Below, one piece after another: positions 28,621 to 59,593 of a stretch of 64,000 bases of DNA. This stretch comes from a virus (taxonomy: Duplodnaviria; Caudoviricetes). How positions within the stretch are numbered: position 1 is the stretch's first letter; every line of letters starts with the position of its first letter. Location of the stretch: IMG/VR virus record IMGVR_UViG_3300032321_001270, positions 32,001-96,000 of that record. The stretch is one strand, 5' to 3'. The notes under the pieces were generated by a model that saw only the letters and a list, made by a program, of their open reading frames with translations, had not been told where the DNA came from and made no database searches. Position numbers and translations under genes: made by a program.

Positions 28621-28629
28621 ATTGTCGTC

Positions 28630-29466: not shown

Positions 29467-29472
29467 GCGAGT

Positions 29473-29829: not shown

Positions 29830-29841
29830 GTCGCCCTCCAA

Positions 29842-29926: not shown

Positions 29927-29935
29927 AACCGCCTG

Positions 29936-30440: not shown

Positions 30441-30486
30441 TTCAAACCTCCTTGTTTAGAAATGAAACCCAAAAAGAATCCCCCAA

Positions 30487-30560
30487 TGCCTCCTCTAGGA
30501 TTCGAACCTAGGACCAACGGATTAAAAGTCCGATGCTCTAACCAGCTGAGCTAAGGAGGC
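30487..30560 (-). tRNA. tRNA-Lys(TTT)
   Basis: Cloverleaf; tcgga-CTTTTAA-tccgt. Confidence 0.95.
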
Positions 30561-41716: not shown

Positions 41717-42139
41717 TCAACCGCCTGTCGACGGTTCCGGTGTCGGCGCCGGGGCAGGGGCAGGGGCAGGGGCAGGGGCCGGTCTTGGAGGCAGAGGAAA
41801 CGGCACCGGCGCTGGAACCGAGTTGATGGTCACCGTGCCGTCAGCGTTGGTCGTAAACGTACCAACCAGTTTCAGCGTTTCGGTCGTGCAGCCGGGCTTT
41901 ACTTCGTTGAGCAGCGCGCCAAGTTTGCCGTGCATCGAGAATACTTCGGCGGCGTCTGTACCAAGCGCAGCCGAGAGTTCAGCCGGCGAGGACTTCGGAT
42001 TCTTCCAAAAGAGTTTTACGCTCTGGTCAAACGTGTTGAGCAGGCTCTGGTATGTAGCCCGGGCGTTCTGCTTGATTTGCGCAGCTGTACGGATGGCCGG
42101 GGTGATCTCGGGAACGTTGGGCTTGTCAAGAACGCTCAT
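41717..42139 (-). CDS. Hypothetical protein with (PA)n tail
   Basis: GGAG SD; (GGGGCA)4 at 41751-41774. Confidence 0.7.
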   Translation of the reverse strand: MSVLDKPNVPEITPAIRTAAQIKQNARATYQSLLNTFDQSVKLFWKNPKSSPAELSAALGTDAAEVFSMHGKLGALLNEVKPGCTTETLKLVGTFTTNADGTVTINSVPAPVPFPLPPRPAPAPAPAPAPAPTPEPSTGG

Positions 42140-42202: not shown

Positions 42203-44491
42203 TTACGGCAGTACAAGCGTTCTGCCGGCTGTCGTGCGCATGAAATTGATATCTAAGAAATCTGGGCGTACCTTTACGGCACGGTACGCTAAGTTTCCGG
42301 GGATCGATACCGAAAACACGATATTCTGGTTCGGGTCAAGGTTCGTGCCGTTGTTAAATTCGACGATAGCCGGATTTTCGTAGATGAAATCAGCAACGTG
42401 GCTATACGAACCGTCGAGTTCTTTTACCAGCGTGAACCCACCTTGGTAGGGCGACGTGCCTGATGTTGAGTGTGCGTGCGCTCGGAAAATACCGCGGTTA
42501 TTAGCGAGGTCAATTTCATAGGTCACGCCGCGGGCATAATTGCCATGATCGGTCTGGTCGTCGTACAGCGTAATAATTTCGTTGCCGGGCGTAAGCGGTG
42601 TAATGTCAGCAGAATGCCAACGCGCGTCATGGTTACCAGCCGGCCCGGTGTACGGATCGTTATAGACCGTAAGCCACTTCGTATTTTGCGTGGTTGCGCC
42701 GCGGGCCACATTCTGGAACGTGCCCGTGTCAGAGCAGCACGGCACACCTTGCAGTGCCCACTTTACTTCTTTCGTTGCGTAGTCGATGCAAAACGCGCCG
42801 CCCGGGTGTCGGCAACTGATAAGCAAATCGCCAGTGACAGGGTGCACGTCGATTGAATTAGCGTGAAAATAATCGTAGTGCGGGCCAATATTGAAGTACT
42901 CGTCGCTGTGCCAATCCCACACAATGGTTTGTCCGTCGGCAGACAGTTCTTGAATATACAGTTCGTTATTGGGCATGTACGTGCCGGTGCAACCGTACGC
43001 GTACGTCATCGAGATAAAGTTGCCGCGGCGGCCTTCGGGGCCGGCGATCATGTGCGACTCGTGGCACTCCCAAATAGGCTGCGAGTTTGACGAGTCGTTT
43101 TTCATCGTGTAGTTCGTGGCCGTCATCTGATTCAGGCCAAGTTCTACGGCGTATCGAGTAGCATCCCCCCACGTGTGCAGCACCAGTTTGTTCGGCACTG
43201 TACAGTGGAGCGAAGAGCCGTTATGCCGGTCGTCGTGGGTGTACCAGACAGGCGTGCCGTTTTCGTTAAACACGATGAAGTAGTTTGCGCCATTACCTTG
43301 GGACGGGTTGTACAGATAGTAGCCGGGACGATACCCGGCGGTCTTTGTCTGCACTGTGACCATCGGCAGGTCGGTCGGGATAACCCGAATAAAATACTCC
43401 TGCGCGCCGTATGTGACGTGCAGTGCTTTATTGACGTCAATTGAACCGGTTGTGTTAGCGCCGTTGATCGTCAGGCTATAAGCGTCGGTGCCGTTTGTGT
43501 CGGAGTAAATGCAGTAGTCTTGAATCGATGGATTAAACGCCGGCATTAAACTGCCGCTGCTGCCATCAATACTGACGTCAAGCGTAGTAATTTGCGCAGA
43601 AGCCGAAACCTCAACAAACATGTCAGAGGTCAGCGGCGGTTTTGGCATCAACTGGCTGATTAGCGCCGTGGCATACCAGTAGATCGTTTTGCCCGCAGCG
43701 CCAGTCGCGTCAATGGCCAGCGTATACGGTTCAACATCGTCGTCTGCTGTAGCACGAACACTGATACCAGCCGCCACAGACCAATCGTTTTCAGCGGTGT
43801 TCTCAATGATGGGGCTGCCCACAAAAACAACACCGTCACCACCTAAACCACGTTTGACGCCGCCGCGAATTGTCCACACAGCCGTTACGTCAGTCGTTAT
43901 ATCGTAAGCCGTGACTTTGATATCAAAATTCCAGATAACACCGATTGGAACTTCAAGGCGCCTAGCAGTGGATACGCCGCTAGAATAAGAAGCTACGCCA
44001 TCCAGCGCCAGTACAGTCGCCGCGTCCGAAGTGGTTTGCCCGCGCAAGTTATAGATACTGAACTGCGCGTCGCCGGGGGTGTTAAATGCGCCGCTCGAAA
44101 TCGCCACTTGACCAAAAGAACTGGCCACCGCCTGTTTGCCGATAGCCAGAGAATTTGCAGCCGTCGCAGAAGATCCGGCGCCAGCCAGTACAGCGGCATT
44201 AGCGCCAGATACTGTGTTATCTGCACCGCCGCCAATAAAGCCGTTGAGCCCAGATACGGTATTTGTGTTGCCGCCGCCGATGAAACCGTCTGTGCCTGTT
44301 ATTTCATTGTTCGTGCCGCTGTTGATGTCAGCGCCCGTAGCGTACGCAAGCAAGTTCCACGGCGTAGTCCCGTCGCCGTACTTGACCTTGTTTGTGTCCG
44401 TTTCAAGGCACGGCTCGCCCGGCTCCAGAACCGGATTCAGTTCTGCCAGATAAGCCGCCGTGCCACGTTTAACGCGAATTTCAATAGTCAT
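42203..44491 (-). CDS. Tail-fibre-anchored protein: Mtd_N-like anchor, cadherin-like sandwich, arylsulfotransferase-like propeller
   Basis: VKRGTAA..NPVLEPGEPCLETDTNKVKYGDG; PAFNPSIQDY; CHESH, FHANS, SCRH, NHDARW. Confidence 0.75.
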   Translation of the reverse strand: MTIEIRVKRGTAAYLAELNPVLEPGEPCLETDTNKVKYGDGTTPWNLLAYATGADINSGTNNEITGTDGFIGGGNTNTVSGLNGFIGGGADNTVSGANAAVLAGAGSSATAANSLAIGKQAVASSFGQVAISSGAFNTPGDAQFSIYNLRGQTTSDAATVLALDGVASYSSGVSTARRLEVPIGVIWNFDIKVTAYDITTDVTAVWTIRGGVKRGLGGDGVVFVGSPIIENTAENDWSVAAGISVRATADDDVEPYTLAIDATGAAGKTIYWYATALISQLMPKPPLTSDMFVEVSASAQITTLDVSIDGSSGSLMPAFNPSIQDYCIYSDTNGTDAYSLTINGANTTGSIDVNKALHVTYGAQEYFIRVIPTDLPMVTVQTKTAGYRPGYYLYNPSQGNGANYFIVFNENGTPVWYTHDDRHNGSSLHCTVPNKLVLHTWGDATRYAVELGLNQMTATNYTMKNDSSNSQPIWECHESHMIAGPEGRRGNFISMTYAYGCTGTYMPNNELYIQELSADGQTIVWDWHSDEYFNIGPHYDYFHANSIDVHPVTGDLLISCRHPGGAFCIDYATKEVKWALQGVPCCSDTGTFQNVARGATTQNTKWLTVYNDPYTGPAGNHDARWHSADITPLTPGNEIITLYDDQTDHGNYARGVTYEIDLANNRGIFRAHAHSTSGTSPYQGGFTLVKELDGSYSHVADFIYENPAIVEFNNGTNLDPNQNIVFSVSIPGNLAYRAVKVRPDFLDINFMRTTAGRTLVLP

Positions 44492-44503
44492 GATAACTCA
44501 GTG

Positions 44504-47500
44504 TCAGAAGGGTGCTGTGGGCGGCGTGAAGTCGCTTGTGTAGAGCGCCTGTTTTATAATGCGAACTTCATCAATAATTACGTTAGATTCAAACCCGCCG
44601 GCTGTTGGTACGAAACCGAGGCACAAAATATACGGCCCCGGTTCTGGCGCTTGCGTGCTGGTACTTACGGCAACGCCCTTCACGTATAGCGTTGACGTGC
44701 CATTAGAGCGAACAACGGCGATGTGGGTCCACTCTCCAACGTTTGCGCCGCCGCCCTGCAATGCGCCAGAAAAACCGTTATTGCATTCAACGGGTCCGCT
44801 TGAAGCGATGCAAAGATGCAATCCACCAAAATAGCTATAGATATCATCAGAAGCGCTCAAGAACAACAAAGTGCTGTAATTAAAATTTGACTGACGGTAA
44901 GCCCAGCATTCAATGGTGAAATCGCCAGTCGAAAGGTCAGGTACGTTGCGCGTGGTTGACGCAAAACCGGTTTGATTGTTGCAGTTGTACGCCGCGGCGC
45001 CAAACATCTTGGTTGACGTATCAAATACACCCGGCGGCGTCGGGAAAGTTAAACCCGTCGGAGATGAATCGACAAGGTTTGACGGGCCGTCGCAGTGCAA
45101 GAGTAGTACCGGTAAAACCGGCGCATAAAAATTGACAAACACGGGGTAAAAATTACTTTCGTACCGCGCGGCCTGCGTCAGGCGCATGTTTGACATATAC
45201 ACGTTGGCATACATATCAAAGTCGTGCCCGTCGATTGTTTCCCAGTACGCGGGGTTTCCGCTACAACTCGGCGACTGATTCACGGAACAAGCGTTAACGC
45301 CGTCCACAAATAACGCTGTAAATTGCCCAGCTTTTCCGACCAAGGCAATATGTTGCCAACGCCCAAGTTTGACAATGTTTGCCGCTGTGCGCGCCACAAA
45401 CCCGGCCCCGTCAGCCGGCAGGCACCCGCCACTGTTTATGCTCAAACTCTTGTCACCCCACATTACAATAGTGCATGGATCTCCGCCGTCACTGCGCAGC
45501 ACAAGAAACGCAGAATCATTTGCCCCACGAGACGGGTCCACAGATTCGGTGTACAGCCAGAACTCATAAGTAAAATCTTGCGTGATGTCTGGCAAGAAAC
45601 CAGAGCCATCCATTCCGGCGTTTGAATACATGCCGACGCCCTGAGTCCCGTATAGTGCCGTGGTGTTTGGACAGCCTTGCGGCGCTGTTGTGAACGACGG
45701 CAACGAGTTGCCGGGCGCATGCCAGTTTGTAGACAGATCAGATGCGCTCGTGAAATGATTCAGGTATTTTACATCAGCGGAATACGGGTCACTGGCTGGT
45801 TCAAAACTCGGCCCGCCAAACGCTTGCGTGGGCGGCGTGAAGTTTTCGGTGTAGACCGCCTCGCCCTTGACGATGCGGAGTTCGTCGATGTAGCCGTGGA
45901 AGAACTCGCCGCTGCTGCCCTGCTGTGCGATCCACAAATCCGCGCCATTATCAGGTTGAACGGCCCACGGCCCAGAATCCGCCAAAACGCCGTCGACGTA
46001 CAGCGACATAGTTCCGTTCTGGTAGCACGCCGCAACGTGGTACCACTGATTCAAATTCAACTCAAACGGCGTCATCAATTCAGAAACGCCTCCGCTGCTA
46101 TTAGCGCTAAGATATAAATTCCTTGTCGCCGGATTACTAAAACCACACAACCACTGCCAGTTGACCCCGGTTCGGCGAGTAATAACCGTTGTGTAACTAT
46201 CTGCATACGAAAGCATATGCATCCAGAATTCAACCGTAAACGGCTCGTCGCCAGTCAAATTAAATGCGTCGTTTGATGCAATTTGTAAATAACTGTTGTT
46301 AACAAAATCAAAATACGCAATTGTCGGACCAAATTTAGTCTCGTTTGTGCTGATTTGAGCGTTGCCGCCGGCGGTTACAGTTAGCATATTTGGCGACGAA
46401 TCAATGAACTGGTTGTCGCCGTCAATGCCGTCAAAGTGCAGGAGCAATGATGTTGTTCCGCTAGACGAAACAATAGGCGGCGCGGTTACAAACTTGTCAG
46501 CAAGATACTTCTCGACGGCCGCAAGCGCCGCAACGCCCAGTTTGTGGTCGTAATGAACCACGGCGGCGATGTCACCTTGCAGCGATTCTGGGGACTGAAA
46601 TGAGCCTCCAAAACCTAAGAGAAGTTCGGCGCCGGCCATAGAGGCCATGTCAGCGTACAGCGTTTCAGAAACTTCTTCTCCGTTTATGCGCAACTTTAAC
46701 AACCCAGCAGCGTCGACTGTGTAACTGATTAATGTCCAGTCAATCGGCAGGGTTGTTGGAAAACCACCACACTCTGCAGCGTTATAATTTCCAGTGCACG
46801 ATGCGTTGTACAACTCCAACCTGCCTTGCGGTTTGTGTACATTTAGCGTTAAACCGTCGAGTTGGCTAAAGTCGGTCCCCGCCGCTGGTTGAAAACTAAT
46901 GATTCTTGCGTAATCGTTGTCGTTGGCTGTTTGCCGCACTACAACAAAACCGCTGGAGTTCTTCAAGTTGAACTGGTGGTTGACCTGCATCACGTTCGGG
47001 TCGCCGTTGAAGTGCACGGCATTCTTACCCGTCGGCGTGGCGCTGATTGCCAGTGTCGGAACAGGGGCGTAATCAGCGTTAGCGGCATTGTTGTTACTGC
47101 CGCTCATGTCACCCCAACCGAGAACCGTATCGTTGAAGGTCGTGAAATCAGAATCAGCGCCGTCCAGCCAGAGATCATTGCCTGTGATAAGTTTGGGCGT
47201 GAAGGGGCCGATAAACGGCTGGGTGGGTGGCGTGAAATCAGTGGTGTAGACAGCCGTGCCCTTGATTACTCGGAATTCGTCAATGTAACCAGTAAACCCG
47301 TCTCCCGCACCTTCTGCCGTCCCTAATGAGGCGGAGGCGCTGAGTGTGAAATCATAGGCCACATTGGTGTCTGCTATCTTTGTTCCGTCAACAAATGCTC
47401 TGACAACACCGCTCTGGCACGTGATTGCGAGATGAAACCACTGGCCTGTAGAAACGCCTAGGGCCTCAATTATAAACCAGCCGTACGGCTGCCGGCCGAT

Positions 47501-50500
47501 CATCAGTTCTCCATAATCTGAAAACACGACAAACAAAGATCCGGCGCAGGTCGCGACCTGCGGACCCAACAACGCCGGATAATTGGAGAATGTTGTGGCG
47601 TTTATCCACATTTCAATTGTGAAATCAGCGGTGCCAAAATGAAATATTTCGGGATCAAAAGACACGCGACTGGAGCCGTCAAAGTACCCGCTTGCCCCAC
47701 CAAATTTGCTTTGAGCAGTTCTAATGACTGCGTTGCCGTTGGCCGTGACTGTCAACGCGTTAGAAGATGAATCCGTGAATGTCGTGCTGCCATTCGCGCC
47801 ATCGAAATGAAGCAGCAAGTCAGCAGTAATCTCGGGCACAAATGGATTCAGGAACGCAGCAGTCGGCGGCGTGAAGTCTGCCGTATAGCGCGCGACGCCC
47901 TTGGTGATGCGGAGGTCGTCGATGTATCCGTACAGCGACCCTTGAACTGACCCGCCATCAAAAAAACCCGCGAAGGTTGGCTGACCGTCATACGGTGACG
48001 AGTCAGTGATCGCCGCGCCTACCATCGCACCGTCTATGAATAACTTCACTGCGCCATTTTCTCTAGCCGCCGCAATGTGATGCCACTCGTTTGATGTTAT
48101 GTAGTGGTCGGAAAACGAGGTGTTTGCATTTGTGCCTTCGTTATACCAGTTCAGAATATTGTTCTGGAGATAGATCGACGGCCTAAAATCTCCGGCGACC
48201 TGCCCGCCCCTCCAGTCAGCGAGAAACACAACCTGCTCTTCTTTCAAGTAGACCCACATCTCGACGGTGAAGTCGCCCGATCCGAGGCTTAAATCGCCGG
48301 AAGCGGACAGTCGACACTGCGCGCCATCATTGTAGTAAGACGATCCTCCAAACTTGCTCTCGGTCGTGCTGATGTACGCGCTGCCATTTGCAGTCACCGT
48401 GTTCTGCAGATACGAATTATCTGTAAATACCGTACTGCCATCCGCGCCGTCCATGTGCAGAAGCAGGACAACGTCTTCTGCGTACGGGTCGCCAACAGGC
48501 GCTGTATCAATAGGATCTGCAAATTCGCGTGTCGGGGGCGTAAAGTCCGCCGTATAACGCGCGACACCCTTAGTGATGCGAAGGTCGTCGATGTACAAAG
48601 TTGTTCCTGATGACGAAAACTCTGCTACATCTCCGGCTACGGAGCCTATTGATGCGTCGGTAGAGTTAGGCCAGTTTATTGAGTCAGTACTTGTGTATGA
48701 GTCATTCTGCACTCCATCCACAAACAACATGTAATCCGAACCGTTTCGGACTATGGCGAAGTGCTGCCATGAATTGAGCGGCAAATCAGTTGCAGAACCC
48801 AAGAATGGCATTTGCCAACTGCCGTCTATTTTGGCGTCTACACGAAGTTTGCCGTCCGTATACACGTAGCAATTCAGTCCTTCAGGCACATTGGCCGATC
48901 TGCCATTGCCAAAAACTCCCACTTGAGACCCGACCGACGACGCTCCGATGTAGTGCCACCATTCAATGGTGAAGTCACTTTCTCCAAAATTGAATGTTTC
49001 GGCAGGAAATTTGATAAAACTTCCGTCACCTTCAAACTTACCGCTGCCATTACCAAATTTGACAGTTGTCAAATCAATCCGCGCGCCGCCGCTGGTCGTG
49101 ACCTCGTGGTGATACTTGGAATTGTCGTAGAAGTAGGTGACAGGTGTTTCGGGCGCAGTCATGGCGCTAAGCGGGGCTGATGGAGGCGTAAAATTCGCAG
49201 TATACACCGCAAAGCCTTTCACGATGCGAAGTTCATCGATGTAGCCGTGGTATGCATCTACGCTGGCTAACTCGTGCGCTCCGCAACCAATTGTGAGTGG
49301 TTGAGCCGCGCCAAGATCTATTACGCCGACGTCTTCTTCAAAAGCGATTACGCCGTCAACGAACACTCGAATAACCGTACCCGCGCGTGTCAGCGCCACA
49401 TGCGCCCATTGCTCTAGCGGCACAGAAACATTGCCAGAATTATTCAACCAATAAAAAGAGTTGCCGGCAAGATAGAGCGCATCGCCGGCGGTGAGCCGCC
49501 ACAAAATTCCATTCGCATATGTGCCAACAGACACAACTGAATTTCTAGTGGCGGAAAACATATACGTAAACATTTCGATGGTAAAATCGCCAGTGCCAAA
49601 ACCAAATAGCGGCGATTCTTCGTATGTCAACGTAGCCACCGGATCGCCAGAGAAATAGCCGCTAGAACCGCCGAACTGATTCTGCTCTGTCGAAATTAAC
49701 GCATTAGAAGAATTTATTGGCATTAGCGCATTATTACTGCTATCTGTAAATGAATCACTGCCGTCGGCGCCGTCAAAGTGGAGTAGCAGCGCCGCGGGTA
49801 ATCCGCCGGCGCTGAACGGCGCTGTCGGCGGCGTGAAGTTATCCGTGTACAGGGCCGTGCCGTTTGTGATTCTGAGTTCGTCCACGTAGCCGTCGTTTAT
49901 CGGGCTTTGGTTGTTGCCCCAAACGCCAATTCTAAAATCAGCCGCCGCTACGGGGTCAGAAACTCCAGAGTCATTTTGCGCCTCCACTTGCCCGTTTAAA
50001 AACAGAGTGAAGACAGAACCCTGACGCACGAAAGCGATATGGTTCCAATCATTCAGTGTCACATAATTACTACCAAAAACACCGTTTGCAAGATCCCAAC
50101 CGCCGCCGCTGCTCGCCCACATACCGATTCTGCCGTCCAAGTACATCATCACGCCATATGTAAAATCGTTGGCGCCGGCGAACAAACACTGGCAACCGCC
50201 ATTCCCGCCGCCGTTGTTATATGTTGTCGGATAAAAGAAACACTCTATCGTAAAATCAGCCGGTAAATCCAATGCGCCATTTACATTTGTTACGGTCAAA
50301 TATCTGGCTGCATGAACGTTTTCATCCGACGGGAAATAGGCGCTTGTGCCGCCGAATTTGCTTTGAGTGTTGGAAAGTTGGATGCCGTCTCCGCCCGTAG
50401 CCGTCGTCGTCAGCGCATTCGCGCCACTGTCAGTAAATGTTGTGCCGCCGTTTGAGCCATCAAAGTGGAGCAGGAGCGCATCGGTTGTGACTGGGCCGGC

Positions 50501-52132
50501 GGTTGTGTTGTTCGGCGACTTGTTCATGTGAAGCAGGAGCGAAACGTTGTCGCCGTAAACATCTGTCGCAAAGTTTTCTTTGCCAAACCCGCCGTTCCAG
50601 AGCATGCCGATGTCAGTAAGACTCAGGGCGCGACTCCAAATACCAATCGAATCCAGCGCGCACGCAACGCTGTTTTGCAAACCACCCTGCTCGCCAACAC
50701 CGACTTGCAGTATGTTCGTGGTGTCAACGAGCGTGCCAGTTACATCCGCGCTATCAGCGAGCACGTTGTCTACGTACAGCCGCGCTTTGCCCGCGTCAGC
50801 ATCGAGCGACAGAACGAAGTGCCGCCACTCGTTCGCGGCAAGTGCAGGATACGCCAGCCGAAACTGACCGCTTGTTGTACGGACATAGGACACCAGTTCG
50901 TTAGTATTTCCACTTTCATCGCCCCAACCAAGTACAAACTGGCCGTCTGGTGCGTTGCCGTCCCAGTTCTGCATGATCTCGCCGAACGTGCCGGTCGTTG
51001 TGGGCAACTTGAACCAGCCTGAGATAGTGAAACTGGGCGTGAGTTTCAGCGTGGGGTGCGACAGGTAATTTGCGCCGCCAGTAAAATTACCGGCATTTCC
51101 AAGCACGCCGGGCACGCTGGCAACAGTGCCGGTTTGCACAAGCGTATTTCCACTGCCACTGATATCTAAACGGCTGCCGTTCTCCTCGTTCATCGGCCAG
51201 AACGCCGTCATGCCGTTGAGAAGCGGGTGCACGACCTGCGTAATTCCCCAGCGGCCCAGCAGATACTCTTCAACCTGCGCCCGCTCTGTGTCGGTAAGTA
51301 CTCGGCTATACAGCACGATTTCGGCAATATCGCCGTTAAACGCGCCAGCAGCATAATCAGCGCGCGACGAACCCAGTGCAAACTGCGTGAACGTACCAAC
51401 CGTGTCTTGCTCTGTGGTTTGAGCCGTCAGGCCATTCAGGCTCGTGGTGAACGACGCCGAATCACAAGCAACCATGTACACAGCCGGCGCGAACGTCGTA
51501 ACTTCTTGCGGCGAATAATAGTTGTCACCAACCCGCGCAGCCACGTGCGTCGCGTCTTGCATAATGCACGGAATAAACCCGCTAGCGTTAGTGTCTGTCG
51601 GGTGGTTCAACGCCGTAAATACACGCCCAGCTGTACTTGTGCCGCGAGGGTTTAATACCACGAACAGCGTGAAGCCGGGCTCTAAATCAAAACTACTGAG
51701 CATGGCGTCATTCGTGCCGTCAAACGTAACGACGCTCAAATCATTGATCGTGTTGCTGGCTGCCGGGCGGTTGGCTTTGAGCGACTGGAAGAAGTGCCGC
51801 TTGTGAATCGACTTGTCATCCCACTGCGCCACTTTGTTATTAACCAGCGACACAAAGTCGGGATCTGCGGCGTCGAGCCACAGCGCCAAACCACTCAGAT
51901 TCGGCGGCGTGAACTCAGGTGTCGTGCCAGCAGACGCGCGGGCTAGTTCGCCACCGTCCACCAAATTAACGTCGGGGTTCGCGTACGGCAGGTCATTCCA
52001 CGCAGTAACGCCGTCGCCAAGTTTAAACTTTCCGGTGTCAATTTCGTGAATGGGTTCTCCGCGCAGCAACACCGGATTGACGGCGTGCAGGTCGGCGGCG
52101 GTACCACGGCGTAATTGAATTTTTGCTGACAT
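44504..52132 (-). CDS. Giant LamG/ConA-array fibre protein with Mtd_N-like anchor
   Basis: IQLRRGTAA..GDGVTAWNDLPY; about 10 modules LLLHFDG...YIDELRI..YT.DFTPPT. Confidence 0.85.
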   Translation of the reverse strand: MSAKIQLRRGTAADLHAVNPVLLRGEPIHEIDTGKFKLGDGVTAWNDLPYANPDVNLVDGGELARASAGTTPEFTPPNLSGLALWLDAADPDFVSLVNNKVAQWDDKSIHKRHFFQSLKANRPAASNTINDLSVVTFDGTNDAMLSSFDLEPGFTLFVVLNPRGTSTAGRVFTALNHPTDTNASGFIPCIMQDATHVAARVGDNYYSPQEVTTFAPAVYMVACDSASFTTSLNGLTAQTTEQDTVGTFTQFALGSSRADYAAGAFNGDIAEIVLYSRVLTDTERAQVEEYLLGRWGITQVVHPLLNGMTAFWPMNEENGSRLDISGSGNTLVQTGTVASVPGVLGNAGNFTGGANYLSHPTLKLTPSFTISGWFKLPTTTGTFGEIMQNWDGNAPDGQFVLGWGDESGNTNELVSYVRTTSGQFRLAYPALAANEWRHFVLSLDADAGKARLYVDNVLADSADVTGTLVDTTNILQVGVGEQGGLQNSVACALDSIGIWSRALSLTDIGMLWNGGFGKENFATDVYGDNVSLLLHMNKSPNNTTAGPVTTDALLLHFDGSNGGTTFTDSGANALTTTATGGDGIQLSNTQSKFGGTSAYFPSDENVHAARYLTVTNVNGALDLPADFTIECFFYPTTYNNGGGNGGCQCLFAGANDFTYGVMMYLDGRIGMWASSGGGWDLANGVFGSNYVTLNDWNHIAFVRQGSVFTLFLNGQVEAQNDSGVSDPVAAADFRIGVWGNNQSPINDGYVDELRITNGTALYTDNFTPPTAPFSAGGLPAALLLHFDGADGSDSFTDSSNNALMPINSSNALISTEQNQFGGSSGYFSGDPVATLTYEESPLFGFGTGDFTIEMFTYMFSATRNSVVSVGTYANGILWRLTAGDALYLAGNSFYWLNNSGNVSVPLEQWAHVALTRAGTVIRVFVDGVIAFEEDVGVIDLGAAQPLTIGCGAHELASVDAYHGYIDELRIVKGFAVYTANFTPPSAPLSAMTAPETPVTYFYDNSKYHHEVTTSGGARIDLTTVKFGNGSGKFEGDGSFIKFPAETFNFGESDFTIEWWHYIGASSVGSQVGVFGNGRSANVPEGLNCYVYTDGKLRVDAKIDGSWQMPFLGSATDLPLNSWQHFAIVRNGSDYMLFVDGVQNDSYTSTDSINWPNSTDASIGSVAGDVAEFSSSGTTLYIDDLRITKGVARYTADFTPPTREFADPIDTAPVGDPYAEDVVLLLHMDGADGSTVFTDNSYLQNTVTANGSAYISTTESKFGGSSYYNDGAQCRLSASGDLSLGSGDFTVEMWVYLKEEQVVFLADWRGGQVAGDFRPSIYLQNNILNWYNEGTNANTSFSDHYITSNEWHHIAAARENGAVKLFIDGAMVGAAITDSSPYDGQPTFAGFFDGGSVQGSLYGYIDDLRITKGVARYTADFTPPTAAFLNPFVPEITADLLLHFDGANGSTTFTDSSSNALTVTANGNAVIRTAQSKFGGASGYFDGSSRVSFDPEIFHFGTADFTIEMWINATTFSNYPALLGPQVATCAGSLFVVFSDYGELMIGRQPYGWFIIEALGVSTGQWFHLAITCQSGVVRAFVDGTKIADTNVAYDFTLSASASLGTAEGAGDGFTGYIDEFRVIKGTAVYTTDFTPPTQPFIGPFTPKLITGNDLWLDGADSDFTTFNDTVLGWGDMSGSNNNAANADYAPVPTLAISATPTGKNAVHFNGDPNVMQVNHQFNLKNSSGFVVVRQTANDNDYARIISFQPAAGTDFSQLDGLTLNVHKPQGRLELYNASCTGNYNAAECGGFPTTLPIDWTLISYTVDAAGLLKLRINGEEVSETLYADMASMAGAELLLGFGGSFQSPESLQGDIAAVVHYDHKLGVAALAAVEKYLADKFVTAPPIVSSSGTTSLLLHFDGIDGDNQFIDSSPNMLTVTAGGNAQISTNETKFGPTIAYFDFVNNSYLQIASNDAFNLTGDEPFTVEFWMHMLSYADSYTTVITRRTGVNWQWLCGFSNPATRNLYLSANSSGGVSELMTPFELNLNQWYHVAACYQNGTMSLYVDGVLADSGPWAVQPDNGADLWIAQQGSSGEFFHGYIDELRIVKGEAVYTENFTPPTQAFGGPSFEPASDPYSADVKYLNHFTSASDLSTNWHAPGNSLPSFTTAPQGCPNTTALYGTQGVGMYSNAGMDGSGFLPDITQDFTYEFWLYTESVDPSRGANDSAFLVLRSDGGDPCTIVMWGDKSLSINSGGCLPADGAGFVARTAANIVKLGRWQHIALVGKAGQFTALFVDGVNACSVNQSPSCSGNPAYWETIDGHDFDMYANVYMSNMRLTQAARYESNFYPVFVNFYAPVLPVLLLHCDGPSNLVDSSPTGLTFPTPPGVFDTSTKMFGAAAYNCNNQTGFASTTRNVPDLSTGDFTIECWAYRQSNFNYSTLLFLSASDDIYSYFGGLHLCIASSGPVECNNGFSGALQGGGANVGEWTHIAVVRSNGTSTLYVKGVAVSTSTQAPEPGPYILCLGFVPTAGGFESNVIIDEVRIIKQALYTSDFTPPTAPF

Positions 52133-52150
52133 GTTTGTTTATTCGTGTGA

Positions 52151-54778
52151 TCAGTTGACGATAGTGGGAGTTAAACCGGCAGTGGAGCGCAAATAGTCGG
52201 CGTCAAAAAACTCTTTTTCAACTTTGAGTATCCTATACAAATCACCCGGAAAATCTACTGCAAAGACGGGGTTAACACCGGGACTAGCGCCGTCACCGGC
52301 ATCTGCGTATTCAACAAGTTGTGGGTGCTGGCCGTTGAAATCAATCACGTGGCTATACGCGCCGTTTTTGTGCAACACGACGTGATAACTACCAAGATAA
52401 CCAGACGGACCGACAGTTGAAAAAATACTGGAACGATGAACGGCTTTATTTTGCGCCAAATCAATTTCGTACATGACACCGCGAGCGTAGGGCGCGCCAT
52501 TTGGAAAATAATTTTGCGCTTTCACCGCCGTAATTGTGCCATTTGCCGTAACGCTATTTGCCGTCGGAAGAGTGTAGGTAAACGTGTTGTTGTCGATTTT
52601 TGTGACCAGAAAAACGCCGTTAAAAGCGCTTTGATTAGCACCGCTGATTTGAACATATGATCCGGTCGTAAACCCGTGGGCGGTCGCAACACCAGTGACA
52701 GTCGTGCCACTTTGAATAAGCGATGTCACAGTTTTCAACGAAATTTGTGAGGCAGCGCCGGCGAAAAAGTTTGTCTGATTATCGAATATTGTGATGACCT
52801 GATTGCCGGGTGTCAGCGGATCTACATGCGGACACCAACGCGCGTGGTGCTGCCCGCAAGTGCCGATGTATTGAAAATTTGCGTGCGTAGGTTCTGAATC
52901 AAGTGTCAGGTATTGCGTGTCCGCTGTAGTTGTTGGGTCAGCGACCGCGGCGAGCGTGACTGACGTTGTTGACGGCGGACCCTGAATCACCCATTTGACC
53001 GCTTTTGTCGTGCCGTCAATGCACATCAAAGCAGAGCAGTTACGCATGCTGCATAACACGTCACCAGTAACTGGGTGCACATCTGCCGAGTTCATATGAA
53101 AAAACGACGAAACCTGAGTGGCAGCCGTCTGATTGAAGTAATTACCGGTCCACCAATCCCACGCAACTTGTCCGGTTGTCGGGGTCTGTTCTTGGATATA
53201 AATACCGTATGCTTTGTCGGTAATCTGTTGTGATCCAGCCGCAGGGGTCGTCGGGAAGGCAACTGTAAGAACGTTGCCGCGGCGGTTAGGCGGGCCGGAG
53301 AGTTGCAACAGTTCGTGCTGCTGCCAGTCAATAATTGGACTTGTGTATGTCGTGCCGTTCTTGGTCGTAGGCAGAAACGAGTAACCACGCGACAATGCCG
53401 CGCTGGCGGTTAAATTGATAACATAACGTTGACCAGATGTACCGTTACGGCGGCTAATGACAACCGTGTTTCGGTCGTTGCCCGGATGATTGATCTGCGG
53501 CAGGCCGGCTTCTTGGCTGTACCAAAACGGCAGACCGTTTTCGTCATAAATGACGTTGTAGTTTGCCGCGTTGATGTCGCGCCGCGATGTGGTCAGGTAA
53601 TAGCCCGGAATGTAGTCCGTCGTTGGCTGCGTCGTAATCGTACCCAGCGGCATGTCCGATGGCAGCAGCCGGATGTAGTAGGCCGAAGAACCAAACGCCA
53701 CTCGAATAATTTTTCCAACAGGCGCGCTATCTGTAATAGCCACGCCATTGACCGTCAGTGTGTACGTGACCGCGTTGCCGAGCGTCGCGGAACTTGTCAG
53801 CACGCCGTAATCGTGAATGTTGGTATTGAACGCGGGAAACAATGCGCCGGTCGAGCCTGCGACAGAGATTGCCAGCGACGCTACCGGCGCGAACGTTGAT
53901 ACGTTGATAAACGACGCGGGATCAATCGGCATCGCTGCGATCGGCGGCAACGAATAAGCAGCGCCGCCACCGTTAAATAATCTTGCGGCCTCGGCGGCTG
54001 TAAGTGCGCGGTCCCAAATACCGGCGCAATCAAAACTCACATTTACTGCGGGATTGAAAGACCCAAACGTTACAACGTCGGATTCGATAGCCGTCAGCGT
54101 GTCTGTCAAACCAGTTGCGGTCGCGTTTAATACGCCGTTTATGTAGATCTTTGCGGCAGCGGCGTTGCTACCGATTGTCTCTCGCACAAGCGTGATGTGC
54201 GTCCACGCGTCAACCGGAATAGCCGCCGCGCTCGTGGCTGGCGACGAGCTGGCTGTTGTTTGTTCAGTCCAACTCAAAGTGCGATTTGAATTTATTTGGA
54301 CGTAACCTGTTTCATTTAGCACACCGAACGGCCCAAACGAAAGAATCGTTGTTTCGACCTCGGGCGCAGCATAGATTTTCAACCAAAACGCAATTGTGCG
54401 TCGCGTAGAAAAAGAATGCGGCGCGTATAAAAAATTAGCATGCGATAACGTCAGTCCGGTGTTTTGAACGCTAGGTGTTGCCGTCGTGGCCGAAACAGGA
54501 ACAAAGAGCGGATGTGAGTTGCCAGATACGTCGGGCACATTACCGACAGTCTGATCAAACAGCCAAAACGCATGAAGACCATTAAGCAGGCTGTCATACA
54601 CAATTTCGCCGCCGTCGACACTGGCGGCTTGCGTTAGCTCAACCACAGTGCCGTCGGCTTTACGTGTAAAAAGTTTGCCGTCCGCGGTATTAACAGCCAA
54701 CTCACCGGCAGACAAATTATCGGCGGCAGGAACAGCGCCAGTTACATCGCTACGCTTATGCTTGATGATATTTGTCAT
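52151..54778 (-). CDS. Tail-fibre-anchored protein: LamG, cadherin-like, arylsulfotransferase-like propeller
   Basis: HKRS..GELAVNTADGKLF anchor; PAFNTNIHDY; QHEL, FHMNS, SMRN, QHHARW. Confidence 0.75.
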   Translation of the reverse strand: MTNIIKHKRSDVTGAVPAADNLSAGELAVNTADGKLFTRKADGTVVELTQAASVDGGEIVYDSLLNGLHAFWLFDQTVGNVPDVSGNSHPLFVPVSATTATPSVQNTGLTLSHANFLYAPHSFSTRRTIAFWLKIYAAPEVETTILSFGPFGVLNETGYVQINSNRTLSWTEQTTASSSPATSAAAIPVDAWTHITLVRETIGSNAAAAKIYINGVLNATATGLTDTLTAIESDVVTFGSFNPAVNVSFDCAGIWDRALTAAEAARLFNGGGAAYSLPPIAAMPIDPASFINVSTFAPVASLAISVAGSTGALFPAFNTNIHDYGVLTSSATLGNAVTYTLTVNGVAITDSAPVGKIIRVAFGSSAYYIRLLPSDMPLGTITTQPTTDYIPGYYLTTSRRDINAANYNVIYDENGLPFWYSQEAGLPQINHPGNDRNTVVISRRNGTSGQRYVINLTASAALSRGYSFLPTTKNGTTYTSPIIDWQQHELLQLSGPPNRRGNVLTVAFPTTPAAGSQQITDKAYGIYIQEQTPTTGQVAWDWWTGNYFNQTAATQVSSFFHMNSADVHPVTGDVLCSMRNCSALMCIDGTTKAVKWVIQGPPSTTSVTLAAVADPTTTADTQYLTLDSEPTHANFQYIGTCGQHHARWCPHVDPLTPGNQVITIFDNQTNFFAGAASQISLKTVTSLIQSGTTVTGVATAHGFTTGSYVQISGANQSAFNGVFLVTKIDNNTFTYTLPTANSVTANGTITAVKAQNYFPNGAPYARGVMYEIDLAQNKAVHRSSIFSTVGPSGYLGSYHVVLHKNGAYSHVIDFNGQHPQLVEYADAGDGASPGVNPVFAVDFPGDLYRILKVEKEFFDADYLRSTAGLTPTIVN

Positions 54779-54792: not shown

Positions 54793-56751
54793 TTAGTATG
54801 CGCCGCCGTCCAGAACAGACGATGTGTATAAAACAGTGCCGCCGGCACCAAGCGCAATTGCTGCGCCATCGGCCCCGCTAAACGCAAGCGTGTTGTTCGC
54901 GGTAAGTGTTTTACCGTTTACAATCGTGAGCGTTGCGCTCGTAGCCGGTTGTGTGAGCGTGACTTTGTTGATAGACGTCGCCGTAGCGGCGCCAATTGTT
55001 ACGATGCTCGTGGATCCCGCAGCTGGGGCAGCGCCCACACTGGCCGCGGTCAGGGTCACAGCCCCTGTTTGTCCGTTTACGCTGCTTATGATATTTGAAG
55101 CCGGACTTCCCGCAGCGCCAGTCGCGCCTTGAGGGCCGGTAGCTCCTGTTGCACCGTCGCTGCCGGCGGGTCCAGCAAAACCGCCCGGTCCGGTTGCTCC
55201 GCTCACGCCAACCGGACCTGTGGCGCCCGTAACTCCAACAGGACCAGTAGCGCCAACAGGGCCAGAAGCACCAGTCACACCAGTGGCGCCTGTAGAACCG
55301 GAAGTTCCATTTGTACCCGCCGGGCCAGTTGCGCCAACAGGGCCAGAAGCACCAGTCACACCAGTGGCGCCAGTAACGCCCTGTGCGCCGCTGATACCAG
55401 TAGCACCCTGTATGCCTGTCGCGCCTGTGACACCAACAGGCCCAGTAGCGCCAGTAATACCGATTGAACCAGTAGCACCGGTTGAGCCTTGTATGCCTGT
55501 CGCGCCTGTGACACCAACAGGCCCAGTAGCGCCGGTAATACCGATCGCGCCGGTTGCACCTGTTACGCCGGTGATTCCACGTAAACCAGTAGCACCAGTG
55601 ATACCGCTCGCGCCCTGCGGGCCACGAATAGGCCCGACGTTTACCCACGCGGTGCCTGTCCACACAACACCGTCGCCAGACAAGCCATCGGGCGCGCCGG
55701 CTGGAATTGGCGTACTTAGTAGCCACATGTCGCCGATAGACGGGCTGAGCGATGGCGGCCAAGAATAAACAGTGCCTTTGATAGTTACGCCGGACCCTGC
55801 GTCACCTTTAGGGCCGGTTGGACCAGTGATACCTGTTGCGCCCTGAATGCCGGTAGAACCAACTACGCCGGTCGCGCCGGTTACGCCGACAGGACCGGTT
55901 GCGCCGGTGATGCCGCGTACGCCAGTCGCGCCTGTAATGCCATCCAAACCAGTAGCGCCAGTTGGGCCGTCGGCGCCTGTAGGGCCGGTTACGCCAGCCG
56001 CGCCCGTCGCCCCCGTTACGCCCCTTAAACCTGTTGGACCAGCTATACCGGTTGCGCCAGAAATACCAATTGGGCCGGATGGGCCTGTCGGTCCGGTCGG
56101 TCCGTTGACGCCGGCAGAACCAGCCGGGCCTGTCGCGCCTGTTACACCAATAGAGCCGGCAGCGCCACTAACACCAGTAGCACCCTGTATACCTGTGGCC
56201 CCGGTTATACCTATTGCGCCGGTAGGACCGGCAATACCGGTCGCGCCCGTCGTACCGACACCAGTAGCGCCGGTTACACCAGTCAAACCGCGTAAACCCG
56301 TTGCACCAATTACTCCGGTGGCGCCAGTCGCGCCCGTAGTGCCCGCGGCGCCAGTGGGACCATTAATGCCGGCCTCGCCAGCGGGGCCTGTCGCACCAGT
56401 GGCGCCGACAACGCCTGTCGCACCCAGCGGACCAGCGACACCTTGATAGCCGGTCGCACCGAGCAAACCAGACTGACCAGCCGGCCCCTGCGGACCAGTT
56501 GCGCCGGTGGGACCAACCACGCCAGTAGCGCCGGTTACGCCTGTCGCGCCGCGCAATCCTGTTGCACCGGTTGCGCCGGAGGCGCCGTCAACGCCAGTGG
56601 GACCACTTACGCCAAGAAGCGCACCAACAGTAGTGCGCTTTGTAACAAGGTTATTTGGATTCTGCGTATCAACGATCGGGATAATGTCGTTGAGCGCCGG
56701 TGTCTGCTTTTCAGGCAACGACGAGATTTTTTTATTTGCCATAGCGCGCAC
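54793..56751 (-). CDS. Collagen-like fibre protein
   Basis: Gly-X-Thr repeats; KKISSLP N-terminus; WTGTAW knot; [11 protein letters not shown] motif. Confidence 0.9.
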
Positions 56752-58818: not shown

Positions 58819-59593
58819 AGCGACCTTCCTTTTTCTTTTTGGTGGAAGCTGTTTTTGCTTTTTCAGCGGCTGCGGCTCTGGCGCGTATACCGGTTGTATG
58901 TTGCGCCACAATTTTGTCAAGTTTTGCTTTATGCTTGCACGCTTTAATCGTCTGGCTTATGTCATTGAGCATGTTGCGAGCAGCGTGAACGTACATACGC
59001 AGAACGTAATACCGACTCGCTGCCTGAATGGCTAGAAGATCGCCGTCAAGCTGTGTGAGAAGCTTTTTGGCTTTTGGCGTTGCTTGAATACCGGCCTTGG
59101 CAAGTGCATTTAAGATATCTTTAGCTGTACAGATGATGTCAGCCACCACAATAATTTGCGAGCCGATAGGGCTTTGACTTAAGCGGCCGCGAAACTCCAT
59201 GTCGCGCTTAGTTTCTACCAGCCGAAAGTCGCGGCTAATGTCGGCAACCATTGCGGCGACCTGTACCGTTGATATCTCAGCAATATTTTCAAACGCACAC
59301 GAACTAACGTTGATAACGTCGTGAAGTAGCGCGCCGTGAACAATGGCCGCAATACTTTCCTTCGTGTCGTCCGGCATAAAATCGACGCGCACATCTTGAT
59401 ATAGTTTTTGCGCGATGACCTCCGCTTGCTGCGCTACAAGCTTGCAGTGATCAAGCAAATTTATGCCGATGCTAGTGCTACGCCCTACATAATGCGTCGC
59501 CGCAAATTCTAGTGTTTTTTGAATCGGTGATCCTTCCGGCTTTTTCATGGCATCTCCATATGCCCTTAAACTAGTCTCAGTATTGTCCGCCAC
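58784..59593 (-). CDS. HD-domain protein, RelA/SpoT hydrolase (Mesh1)-like, degenerate
   Basis: FAATHY...LLDH...GALLHDVIN...VVADI; lacks the HDxxED acidic pair. Confidence 0.65.
   Translation of the reverse strand: MADNTETSLRAYGDAMKKPEGSPIQKTLEFAATHYVGRSTSIGINLLDHCKLVAQQAEVIAQKLYQDVRVDFMPDDTKESIAAIVHGALLHDVINVSSCAFENIAEISTVQVAAMVADISRDFRLVETKRDMEFRGRLSQSPIGSQIIVVADIICTAKDILNALAKAGIQATPKAKKLLTQLDGDLLAIQAASRYYVLRMYVHAARNMLNDISQTIKACKHKAKLDKIVAQHTTGIRARAAAAEKAKTASTKKKKEGRYARKRSVEQDS

What the first reader, a model, noticed from the sequence alone, without database searches (positions are those of the whole stretch)
42203..54778. Two arylsulfotransferase-like propellers mounted on different tail-fibre anchors
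ORFs 42203-44491 and 52151-54778 share a cadherin-like sandwich (G.L.PAFN..I.DY) followed by a propeller with motifs HE, FH.NS.DVHPVTGD.L.S.R and [NQ]H.ARW. These match the His/Asn/Arg active-site motifs of PAPS-independent arylsulfate sulfotransferases (ASST). One has an Mtd_N-like anchor, the other an HKRS..GELAVN anchor plus LamG, and they flank a giant lectin-array gene. The catalytic-type residues are kept in both despite divergence. Inference: virion-displayed enzymes or binders for sulfated glycans, which fits a planctomycete host or niche. This would be a new receptor-binding enzyme class.
Basis: partly seen in the sequence, partly recalled or inferred. Interest (0 to 1): 0.78.

Follow-up and report, generated by a model that had tools for sequence, protein, structure and literature searches.

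The report
Phage tail fibres tipped with sulfotransferase-type enzymes
A 205-kb uncultured phage has two tail-fibre proteins that each end in a complete copy of a bacterial cofactor-independent sulfate-transfer enzyme with its catalytic residues intact, an enzyme type I found in no cultured phage, so the virus probably reads or rewrites sulfate groups on its host's surface.

Summary
ORFs 42203-44491 and 52151-54778 (both minus strand) share a 477-residue C-terminal module, 35% identical. It exceeds Pfam's cut-offs for Arylsulfotrans and Arylsulfotran_2. It folds with pLDDT 91.6 into a 7-strand sandwich plus propeller. Its best structural matches are Cpz4 (Z 33) and E. coli AssT (Z 27), against Z 20 or less for generic propellers.

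All five AssT catalytic residues are present: H477/H543/N545/R561/H621 in one protein and H488/H561/N563/R579/H644 in the other. They are among only 22 of 477 columns that stay at least 97% conserved across 86 viral copies averaging 38% identity.

The "cadherin-like sandwich" is the ASST family's own N-terminal domain. The viral copies form one clade. They are found only in uncultured large phages, usually at the C-terminus behind fibre anchors.

I found no match in 50,697 GenBank phages, PHROGs or BFVD, and no paper on this. Activity, substrate and virion location remain untested. The phage encodes no sulfate-donor pathway. A planctomycete host gets no support.

Verdict: real, apparently undescribed, and best called a new variant of the enzymatic receptor-binding protein. 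The same scan noted these genes in another reading of this genome.

The parts
42203..44491 (-). P0001, 762 aa. Fibre protein made of an Mtd_N anchor, a beta-roll-like stretch, an unassigned region (140-285) and an ASST module (286-762).
   Evidence: ORF and translation; Pfam; PHROG tail-fibre N-terminal hits.
44363..44479 (-). Mtd_N-type N-terminal fibre anchor of P0001 (residues 5-43).
   Evidence: PF18454, 40.6 bits against a cut-off of 26.3. Only two copies exist in the genome, P0001 and P0003. A weak match to the N-terminus of prophage hyaluronidase 6x3m.
44078..44332 (-). Gly/Asn-rich beta-roll-like shaft segment of P0001 (residues 54-138).
   Evidence: PF21300 LbR_Ice_bind, 22.8-26.8 bits, below the cut-off of 30. 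Treat as weak.
43337..43636 (-). N-terminal 7-strand beta-sandwich of the ASST module in P0001 (residues 286-385).
   Evidence: The AF2 model has seven strands in module residues 7-86. VIA alignment to AssT spans model 1-462 and chain 14-570. P317, F319 and Y326 are at least 99% conserved.
42206..43336 (-). Beta-propeller of the ASST module in P0001 (residues 386-762). Catalytic codons: H477 (43061-43063), H543 (42863-42865), N545 (42857-42859), R561 (42809-42811) and H621 (42629-42631).
   Evidence: Pfam; profile alignment to Cpz4 and AssT; fold matches; conservation; codons checked.
44504..52132 (-). P0003, 2542 aa: an Mtd_N anchor followed by 11 Laminin_G_3 (LamG/ConA-like) modules. It lies between the two ASST fibres, 12 and 18 nt from its neighbours.
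   Evidence: A 205,044-bp relative has the same three-gene order.
52151..54778 (-). P0002, 875 aa. Fibre protein made of a gp37-N-like anchor, a LamG domain and an ASST module (284-875) that carries an inserted beta domain.
54626..54778 (-). N-terminal anchor of P0002 (residues 1-51, HKRS...GELAVN).
   Evidence: phrog_1699 and phrog_19966, 'long tail fiber protein distal subunit', profile positions 7-53, E 6e-8. It is unique in the genome.
53987..54409 (-). Laminin_G_3 domain of P0002 (residues 124-264).
   Evidence: PF13385, 51.9 bits against a cut-off of 27.6.
52154..53929 (-). ASST module of P0002 (residues 284-875). Catalytic codons: H488 (53315-53317), H561 (53096-53098), N563 (53090-53092), R579 (53042-53044) and H644 (52847-52849).
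52490..52738 (-). Beta domain of about 83 residues inserted into a propeller loop of P0002 (residues 681-763). It comes just after the invariant Asp of the FD[DN]Q strand.
   Evidence: A gap in the P0001/P0002 alignment; phrog_9998, E 1.4e-11; weak E1_FCCH and End_beta_barrel hits, E 0.014 and 0.021, below cut-off; well-folded strands in the model; BFVD 'Gp6 domain' hits with rmsd 1.6 over 79 columns.
54793..56751 (-). Collagen-like tail-fibre gene directly upstream (14-nt gap). Context for a co-transcribed fibre cluster.
   Evidence: PF01391 E 2.4e-65; PHROG tail-fibre families.
41717..42139 (-). Conserved 140-aa protein directly downstream of P0001. A possible fibre-assembly partner; its function is not known.
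   Evidence: 58% identical to the gene in the same position in the 205,044-bp relative. No Pfam or PHROG hit.

Best explanation
Both proteins are tail fibres, or side fibres, of a jumbo phage. The distal C-terminal head of each is a complete enzyme module of the PAPS-independent arylsulfate sulfotransferase (ASST) family. The module was captured once from exported bacterial enzymes, and the export signal was replaced by fibre anchors. The active site is kept under strong purifying selection. It comprises a nucleophilic His that would carry the sulfuryl group, a second acid/base His, and Asn and Arg that hold the sulfate. The most likely working model has the head docking onto a sulfate-ester-bearing or sulfatable glycoconjugate of the host envelope. 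The LamG lectin-like domains on the same and neighbouring fibres would help it dock. The propeller pocket would then bind the sulfate ester and probably transfer the sulfuryl group through a sulfo-histidine intermediate. The head would thus be both receptor recogniser and receptor modifier, analogous to endosialidase or esterase tailspikes. This enzyme type needs no nucleotide cofactor, so it is one that could work outside a cell. Shown: homology, fold, catalytic residues, conservation, fibre anchors and gene context. Inferred: virion location, the nature of the ligand, and actual turnover.
For: Family and fold. Pfam hits exceed the cut-offs. A profile of 38 modules hits Cpz4 at E 1.9e-22 and AssT at E 2.4e-9. 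Foldseek puts AssT at 5.6e-16 and Cpz4 at 1.6e-13, against 2e-8 for the next fold. VIA gives Z 33.3 for Cpz4 and Z 27.0 for AssT, against 20.4 or less for other propellers.

Catalytic residues. All five align in register with Cpz4. Four align in register with AssT His252, His356, Asn358 and Arg374. The fifth is the QH[DT]A.W motif at AssT His436. Their roles are taken from PMC13426309 and the two-histidine mechanism preprint.

Selection. In 86 distinct viral modules averaging 38.5% identity, only 22 of 477 columns are at least 97% conserved, and all five catalytic residues are among them. H621 and N545 are kept in 86 of 86.

Fibre nature. P0001 has an Mtd_N anchor and P0002 a gp37-N-like anchor. 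The genes are packed 12-18 nt apart within a cluster of collagen-like and LamG fibre genes. The module is C-terminal in most viral copies, and 34 carry these anchors. A 46%-identical relative has the same three-gene order.

Extracellular fit. 33 of 37 cellular relatives have a hydrophobic, often lipobox-like, leader, so the family already works outside the cytoplasm. Cpz4 prefers a sugar hydroxyl as acceptor.
Against: No activity, ligand or virion proteome exists. ASSTs are known to take sulfate from aryl sulfates, which have good leaving groups. Carbohydrate sulfates are poor donors, so simple 'desulfation' of a glycan is chemically doubtful. The phage encodes no donor pathway: no PAPS-type sulfotransferase, APS kinase or sulfatase. 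Some viral copies carry the module at the N-terminus or internally, which does not fit a simple distal-head picture. The equivalent of AssT Thr501 could not be assigned. That column is Thr in only 46 of 86 viral copies. The host is unknown.
Confidence: 0.55

Rival explanations
1. Pure binder. The ASST module serves only as a lectin-like receptor-binding head. The catalytic residues are kept because they grip a sulfate (or similar anionic) group of the receptor. No sulfuryl transfer takes place during infection.
For: Receptor-binding heads are often built from borrowed enzyme or lectin folds, and propellers are common binding scaffolds. No donor supply is encoded. Carbohydrate sulfates are poor ASST donors (established chemistry of the family). 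LamG lectin-like domains alongside point to adhesion.
Against: Binders derived from enzymes usually lose the nucleophile. Here the nucleophilic His is kept in 86 of 86 copies and the acid/base His in 85 of 86, at 38% mean identity. The most conserved stretches in the viral clade are those around the catalytic motifs.
Confidence: 0.25
2. Same fold, different chemistry. The His/His/Asn/Arg pocket acts on another tetrahedral oxyanion ester of the cell envelope, for example a phosphate ester of a wall glycopolymer, or hydrolyses rather than transfers. The 'sulfo' label would then be wrong for the viral clade.
For: The viral clade sits on a long stem branch (0.98) away from all cellular relatives. 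It is only 13-17% identical to the two characterised structures. About 15 positions are conserved in the viral copies and not in the cellular ones, and the column near AssT Thr501 differs (Arg in cellular copies, Thr/Lys in viral ones). The natural substrates of most ASST-family proteins are unknown.
Against: Every residue assigned to sulfuryl binding and transfer in AssT and Cpz4 is retained. No member of the family is known to use another chemistry.
Confidence: 0.1
3. Not a virion part. The proteins are made late and act as free or cell-bound enzymes, for example by altering the envelope of the infected cell or of neighbouring cells after lysis. The fibre-like N-termini would serve only for oligomerisation.
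For: The cluster is flanked by non-structural genes: thymidylate kinase and glycosyltransferases. Several viral copies lack a recognisable anchor or carry the module at the N-terminus.
Against: Mtd_N and gp37-N-type N-termini are typical of fibre attachment. The genes lie between collagen-like fibre genes with gaps of 12-18 nt. There is no signal peptide.
Confidence: 0.1

Closest known systems
Cpz4, the ASST-type sulfotransferase of caprazamycin biosynthesis (Streptomyces sp. MK730-62F2; PDB 9KF4/9KF6)
   Same: It is the best sequence match (profile E 1.9e-22) and the best structural match (Z 33.3, rmsd 2.7 over 325 residues). All five catalytic residues align in register. It is cofactor-independent and sulfates a sugar hydroxyl.
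   Different: Cpz4 is a soluble biosynthetic enzyme of 472 aa, about 16% identical. The phage modules are mounted on fibre anchors and belong to a separate viral clade, and their donor and acceptor are unknown.
E. coli CFT073 arylsulfate sulfotransferase AssT/EcAST (PDB 3ELQ, 3ETS, 3ETT)
   Same: Same two-domain layout of an N-terminal 7-strand sandwich and a propeller. The equivalents of His252, His356, Asn358, Arg374 and His436 are conserved. It is extracytoplasmic.
   Different: AssT is a periplasmic homodimer with an essential disulfide made by DsbL/DsbI, and it acts on small phenols. Identity is 13-17%. No Thr501 equivalent could be assigned. The oligomeric state of the phage proteins is unknown.
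Exported ASST-family proteins of Myxococcota, Actinomycetota and Dormibacterota (uncharacterised; 450-530 aa)
   Same: They align over the whole 477-residue module at 23-30% identity and share the same invariant residues.
   Different: They have signal or lipobox-like leaders and a conserved Cys pair in the sandwich that the viral copies lack. The viral copies form their own clade with 100% support.
Endosialidase tailspikes of K1 coliphages (K1F endoNF, K1E)
   Same: It works like them in design: a six-bladed enzyme propeller of cellular origin mounted on a phage adhesin. In P0002 a small beta domain is also inserted into the propeller. Pfam End_beta_barrel gives E 0.021, and the K1E tailspike appears in BFVD hits at E 1.2e-5.
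   Different: The enzyme family is different (sialidase versus ASST) and so is the chemistry (glycoside hydrolysis versus sulfuryl transfer). The similarities are weak and below family cut-offs, so this is an analogy and not membership.
Bordetella phage BPP-1 Mtd and prophage hyaluronidase HylP (N-terminal fibre anchor)
   Same: P0001 and P0003 begin with the Mtd_N domain, above the Pfam cut-off. There is a weak match to the N-terminus of HylP 6x3m.
   Different: Only the anchor is shared. There is no C-type-lectin variable domain, and the genome has no reverse transcriptase, so no diversity-generating retroelement is present.

Membership tests
PAPS-independent arylsulfate sulfotransferase family (Pfam PF05935/PF14269; AssT, Cpz4) | Sequence match to the family models above the curated cut-offs. 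| tested here: met
   PF05935 scores 34.2 and 35.5 bits (cut-off 24.2). PF14269 scores 28.9 and 34.7 bits (cut-off 27). The profile hits Cpz4 at E 1.9e-22 and AssT at E 2.4e-9.
PAPS-independent arylsulfate sulfotransferase family (Pfam PF05935/PF14269; AssT, Cpz4) | An N-terminal beta-sandwich plus a six-bladed beta-propeller. | tested here: met
   The AF2 models have pLDDT 91.6 and 88.3. VIA gives Z 33.3 for Cpz4 and Z 27.0 for AssT, including the sandwich, against 20.4 or less for other propellers. I did not count the blades directly.
PAPS-independent arylsulfate sulfotransferase family (Pfam PF05935/PF14269; AssT, Cpz4) | The sulfuryl-carrying histidine (AssT His436). | tested here: met
   P0001 H621 and P0002 H644 align in register with the Cpz4 QHD motif, and by motif (QH[DT]A.W) with AssT TQH436TAW. 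HMMER's own AssT alignment is shifted by 6 residues here. The residue is kept in 86 of 86 viral modules.
PAPS-independent arylsulfate sulfotransferase family (Pfam PF05935/PF14269; AssT, Cpz4) | The sulfate-coordinating residues His252, His356, Asn358 and Arg374 (AssT numbering). | tested here: met
   H477/H543/N545/R561 in P0001 and H488/H561/N563/R579 in P0002 align in register with AssT and Cpz4. They are kept in 84-86 of 86 viral modules.
PAPS-independent arylsulfate sulfotransferase family (Pfam PF05935/PF14269; AssT, Cpz4) | An equivalent of Thr501 in the active site. | tested here: inconclusive
   AssT T501 aligns within one residue of P0001 G685/T687. That column is Thr in 46 of 86 viral copies and Arg in most cellular ones. 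I had no coordinates to decide.
PAPS-independent arylsulfate sulfotransferase family (Pfam PF05935/PF14269; AssT, Cpz4) | Ping-pong sulfuryl transfer from an aryl sulfate donor through a sulfo-histidine. | not testable with these tools
   This needs an enzyme assay and mass spectrometry.
Phage tail fibre / receptor-binding protein | An N-terminal virion-attachment domain of a known fibre type. | tested here: met
   Mtd_N scores 40.6 bits against a cut-off of 26.3 in P0001. The P0002 N-terminus matches the N-termini of PHROG long-tail-fibre families at E 6e-8.
Phage tail fibre / receptor-binding protein | Location in a cluster of fibre or structural genes, conserved in relatives. | tested here: met
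   The genes are flanked by collagen-like fibre genes and LamG 'baseplate wedge/virion structural' genes. A 205,044-bp relative has the same three-gene order.
Phage tail fibre / receptor-binding protein | A trimeric fibre and physical presence on the virion. | not testable with these tools
There is no cultured relative with a virion proteome.
Diversity-generating-retroelement target (Mtd-type) | A reverse transcriptase and a template repeat paired with a C-type-lectin variable region. | tested here: not met
   The genome has no RVT_1 match. Only the Mtd_N anchor is shared.

The most novel reading that the evidence does not exclude
The virion carries working, cofactor-free sulfotransferases that rewrite the sulfation pattern of the host envelope at the moment of contact. 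They might create or destroy a receptor, move sulfate between neighbouring surface groups, or hold the phage through a covalent sulfo-histidine link. That would be a new mode of phage adsorption chemistry and the first natural role for an ASST on a macromolecular surface.
Probability: 0.3. Interest if true: 0.8.

Novelty: new variant of a known kind. Interest (0 to 1): 0.62.

Why it matters
The known enzymatic heads of phage receptor-binding proteins cut or strip surface polymers; they are lyases, hydrolases, sialidases and esterases. A sulfuryl-transfer enzyme would add a new chemistry to that list. It would point to sulfate esters on bacterial surfaces as phage receptors, and few such surfaces have been studied. 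The natural substrates of most ASST-family enzymes are unknown. A fibre that must recognise a host surface offers a direct way to find one, by using the labelled head to pull out the host cell and the ligand. Stable, cofactor-independent sulfotransferases that act on glycans are also sought as biocatalysts.

Tried and rejected
1. Direct phmmer of either protein against PDB found no ASST. A profile was needed.

2. tblastn of the module against 50,697 GenBank phage records found no match. PHROGs has no family covering the module. BFVD has no ASST-like viral structure; the best hit is E 1.4e-7 at TM 0.20, and no listed hit reaches a query TM above 0.34.

3. Donor supply in the phage genome. I found no Sulfotransfer_1, Sulfotransfer_3 or sulfatase. 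The only APS-kinase hit is a sub-threshold P-loop match in the thymidylate kinase.

4. Host clues.
- The nearest cellular ASSTs include no Planctomycetota.
- The Atlas look-up of thymidylate kinase was mixed: mostly Pseudomonadota, with one Planctomycetota cluster.
- The genome has no psbA or NblA.
- The helicase's best cultured matches are Salmonella phage Arash and Pseudanabaena phage PA-SR01, at about 33%.
- LamG matches are mostly in cyanophages, which may only reflect database bias.
The host stays unknown.

5. The gene neighbourhoods of six of the nearest cellular relatives show no shared partner that hints at a substrate.

6. The sandwich alone gives no Pfam hit, not even to Cadherin-like.

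7. There is no reverse transcriptase, so the Mtd_N name does not imply a diversity-generating retroelement.

Environment, expression and trimer formation therefore went untested.

9. Literature searches linking ASST to phages, tail fibres or sulfated phage receptors returned nothing relevant.
Full report
**What is in the sequence.** The window is part of a single 205,188-bp IMG/VR virus record that CheckV rates 100% complete. Nearly all genes run on the minus strand.

Between 34.4 and 56.8 kb lies a run of fibre-type genes:
- two LamG-array proteins that match PHROG 'baseplate wedge' and 'virion structural protein' families;
- two collagen-like tail-fibre proteins;
- the three genes of the finding.

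The three genes are packed 12-18 nt apart behind the upstream collagen gene. They are:
- P0002 (52151-54778, 875 aa);
- P0003 (44504-52132, 2542 aa), with an Mtd_N anchor and 11 Laminin_G_3 repeats;
- P0001 (42203-44491, 762 aa).

**Check of the observation.** P0001 and P0002 share a C-terminal module: 35% identity over 406 residues (E 6e-70) and 46% over the last 108.

Both proteins exceed Pfam's curated cut-offs for Arylsulfotrans and Arylsulfotran_2. P0001 starts with Mtd_N, above the cut-off. P0002 starts with a segment that matches the N-termini of PHROG long-tail-fibre families, followed by a LamG domain. Mtd_N occurs only on P0001 and P0003 in the genome, and the P0002 anchor occurs once.

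**Family membership.** A search of 5.8 billion clustered proteins found two tiers of relatives. The first tier is fibre-type proteins at 34-72% identity, most of them carrying Mtd_N. The second tier is 450-530-aa bacterial proteins at 25-30% identity that align over about 95% of the 477-residue module and that their sources label ASST.

A 38-sequence alignment has invariant H192, H258, N260, R276 and H336 in module numbering. As a profile it hits Cpz4 (PDB 9KF4) at E 1.9e-22 and E. coli AssT (3ELQ) at E 2.4e-9.

The AlphaFold model has pLDDT 91.6 and pTM 0.91. It shows a seven-strand sandwich followed by an all-beta propeller. Foldseek ranks AssT (5.6e-16) and Cpz4 (1.6e-13) first, seven orders of magnitude ahead of generic propellers. 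VIA-align gives these scores:
- Cpz4: Z 33.3, rmsd 2.7 over 325 residues;
- AssT: Z 27.0, rmsd 3.5 over 358 residues, spanning model 1-462, so the sandwich is included;
- other propellers: Z 20.4 or less.

AssT is described as a 7-stranded sandwich plus a 6-bladed propeller (PMC13426309).

**Catalytic residues.** According to PMC13426309, AssT is transiently sulfated on His436. His252, His356, Asn358, Arg374 and Thr501 coordinate the sulfuryl group. A 2026 preprint supports a cooperative two-histidine mechanism in another ASST.

In the HMMER alignments all five of the conserved His/His/Asn/Arg/His positions line up in register with Cpz4. Four line up in register with AssT His252, His356, Asn358 and Arg374. 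The fifth is the motif QH[DT]A.W, which in AssT reads TQH436TAW. HMMER's own AssT alignment is shifted by six residues at that point, so this one assignment rests on the motif and on the Cpz4 alignment.

The residues are H477, H543, N545, R561 and H621 in P0001, and H488, H561, N563, R579 and H644 in P0002. I checked the codons. The Thr501 equivalent could not be fixed. I could not inspect model coordinates, so the three-dimensional clustering of these residues is inferred from homology and not measured.

**Selection on the site.** I collected 86 distinct viral-type modules with a mean pairwise identity of 38.5%. Only 22 of 477 columns hold one residue in at least 97% of them, and all five catalytic positions are among the 22:

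| Residue | Kept in |
|---|---|
| H621 | 86/86 |
| N545 | 86/86 |
| H543 | 85/86 |
| R561 | 85/86 |
| H477 | 84/86 |

My own arithmetic puts the chance that five pre-named columns all fall in such a set at about 2e-7. The best-conserved stretches in the viral clade are those around these motifs. This is the pattern of an active site in use, and it is my main argument against a purely structural scaffold.

**Origin and spread.** IMG/VR holds 22 loci with the module, on contigs of up to 205 kb. The exhaustive representative search finds 338 relatives. Of these, 51 score below 1e-30; they are mostly multidomain proteins of up to 3468 aa.

A scan of one genome for each of 185,579 species found cellular relatives only at 30% identity or less. 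They come from Myxococcota, Actinomycetota (mainly Acidimicrobiia), Dormibacterota and a few others, and none from Planctomycetota.

In a maximum-likelihood tree the 24 viral copies form one clade (SH-aLRT 100) on a long stem of 0.98. P0001 and P0002 fall in different subclades, each with orthologues in other phages. This is most simply read as one old capture followed by duplication, though the tree is unrooted.

A 205,044-bp relative keeps the same three-gene order, LamG-ASST, then the Mtd_N-LamG giant, then Mtd_N-ASST. Its Mtd_N-ASST module, the orthologue of P0001, is 46% identical.

Among the viral proteins the module is C-terminal in most. Twenty-eight have Mtd_N anchors and six have the gp37-N-like anchor. 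Two proteins (P0012 and P0033) carry two complete modules in tandem, and some have the module at the N-terminus or internally.

Of the cellular relatives, 33 of 37 have a hydrophobic, often lipobox-like, leader. They also have a conserved Cys pair in the sandwich that the viral copies lack. The phage thus took an enzyme that already worked outside the cytoplasm and swapped its export signal for fibre anchors.

**The insert in P0002.** Residues 681-763 interrupt a propeller loop just after the invariant Asp of the FD[DN]Q strand. The insert folds as a separate beta domain in the model. It matches phrog_9998 at E 1.4e-11. It also matches small 'Gp6 domain' phage proteins in BFVD, with rmsd 1.6 over 79 columns.

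Its Pfam similarities to E1_FCCH and to the beta-barrel that is inserted in the endosialidase propeller are below cut-off (E 0.014 and 0.021). They are a lead only.

**How it most likely works.** The fibre anchors, the lectin-like LamG domains on the same and neighbouring proteins, and the C-terminal position of the module together point to a distal head that meets the host surface.

An ASST needs no nucleotide cofactor, so it is one of the few transferase types that could act on a virion. Cpz4, the nearest characterised relative, prefers a sugar hydroxyl as acceptor. My best model (0.55) is therefore a head that binds a sulfate-ester-bearing or sulfatable surface glycoconjugate and probably moves the sulfuryl group through a sulfo-histidine. 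It would work like the enzyme heads of endosialidase or esterase tailspikes.

The weak points are chemical and ecological. Known ASST donors are aryl sulfates, not carbohydrate sulfates. The phage encodes no donor pathway. The host is unknown.

The rivals are:
- a pure binder that keeps the site to grip an anionic group (0.25);
- a related but different ester chemistry (0.10);
- a non-virion enzyme (0.10).

**Host claim.** Nothing I tested supports Planctomycetota. The best cultured matches of the phage helicase are Salmonella phage Arash and Pseudanabaena phage PA-SR01, at about 33%. LamG relatives are commonest in cyanophages, which may be sampling bias. No cyanophage marker genes are present.

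**Novelty.** I found no ASST-like module in 50,697 GenBank phages, in PHROGs or in BFVD. I found no paper that links ASSTs to phage fibres or to sulfated phage receptors.

Earlier notes of this scan describe cellular ASST propellers fused to carbohydrate-binding modules.

Enzyme-tipped receptor-binding proteins are a known kind. An ASST as the enzyme is new, so I class this as a new variant of a known kind. It rests entirely on sequence and predicted structure.

Noticed in passing
window 41717-42139 (-): A 140-aa protein with no family match sits directly downstream of the Mtd_N-ASST fibre. It is 58% identical to the gene in the same position in a 205,044-bp relative, so it is better conserved than the fibre head (46%). 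It may be a fibre-assembly partner.
   Followed up: partly
window 52490-52738 (-), P0002 residues 681-763: A small beta domain (phrog_9998) is inserted into the propeller next to an invariant Asp. It has weak similarity, below cut-off, to E1_FCCH and to the endosialidase beta-barrel insert. The same domain occurs in 'Gp6 domain' proteins of uncultured phages.
   Followed up: partly
P0012 (1093 aa) and P0033 (1291 aa), metagenomic relatives: Some viral-type proteins carry two complete ASST modules in tandem. Others (P0036, P0037, P0128) start with the module and continue with LamG or long unassigned regions, so the module is not always the distal end.
   Followed up: partly
Cellular relatives P0041-P0097; loci L025-L104: The bacterial homologues mostly have lipobox-like leaders (for example LVAGC, LLAC) and a conserved Cys pair in the sandwich. 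The viral clade has replaced that pair with Thr and Ile. In L025 the next gene encodes a DsbA-like domain fused to a Na+/H+ antiporter, which recalls the astA-dsbA pairing of enteric ASSTs.
   Followed up: partly
window 27765-28112 (-) and 28337-30560 (-): The phage encodes a full-length tmRNA (Rfam RF00023, 119.7 bits), followed by five tRNAs (Leu-TAG, Glu-TTC, Val-TAC, Leu-TAA and Lys-TTT).
   Followed up: partly
window 10719-12881 (-) and 44504-52132 (-): The helicase's best cultured matches are Salmonella phage Arash and Pseudanabaena phage PA-SR01 (about 33%). The first LamG units of P0003 match mainly cyanophage structural proteins, with 301 of 389 records from Synechococcus phages, Prochlorococcus phages or records named 'Cyanophage'. 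This is a possible but unproven hint about lineage or host.
   Followed up: partly
window 31438-32574 (-) and 59566-60651 (-): Glycosyltransferase genes flank the fibre cluster: phrog_3408 at E 4e-60 on one side and a weak GT1/GT4-like gene on the other. They might glycosylate fibres or host structures.
   Followed up: no
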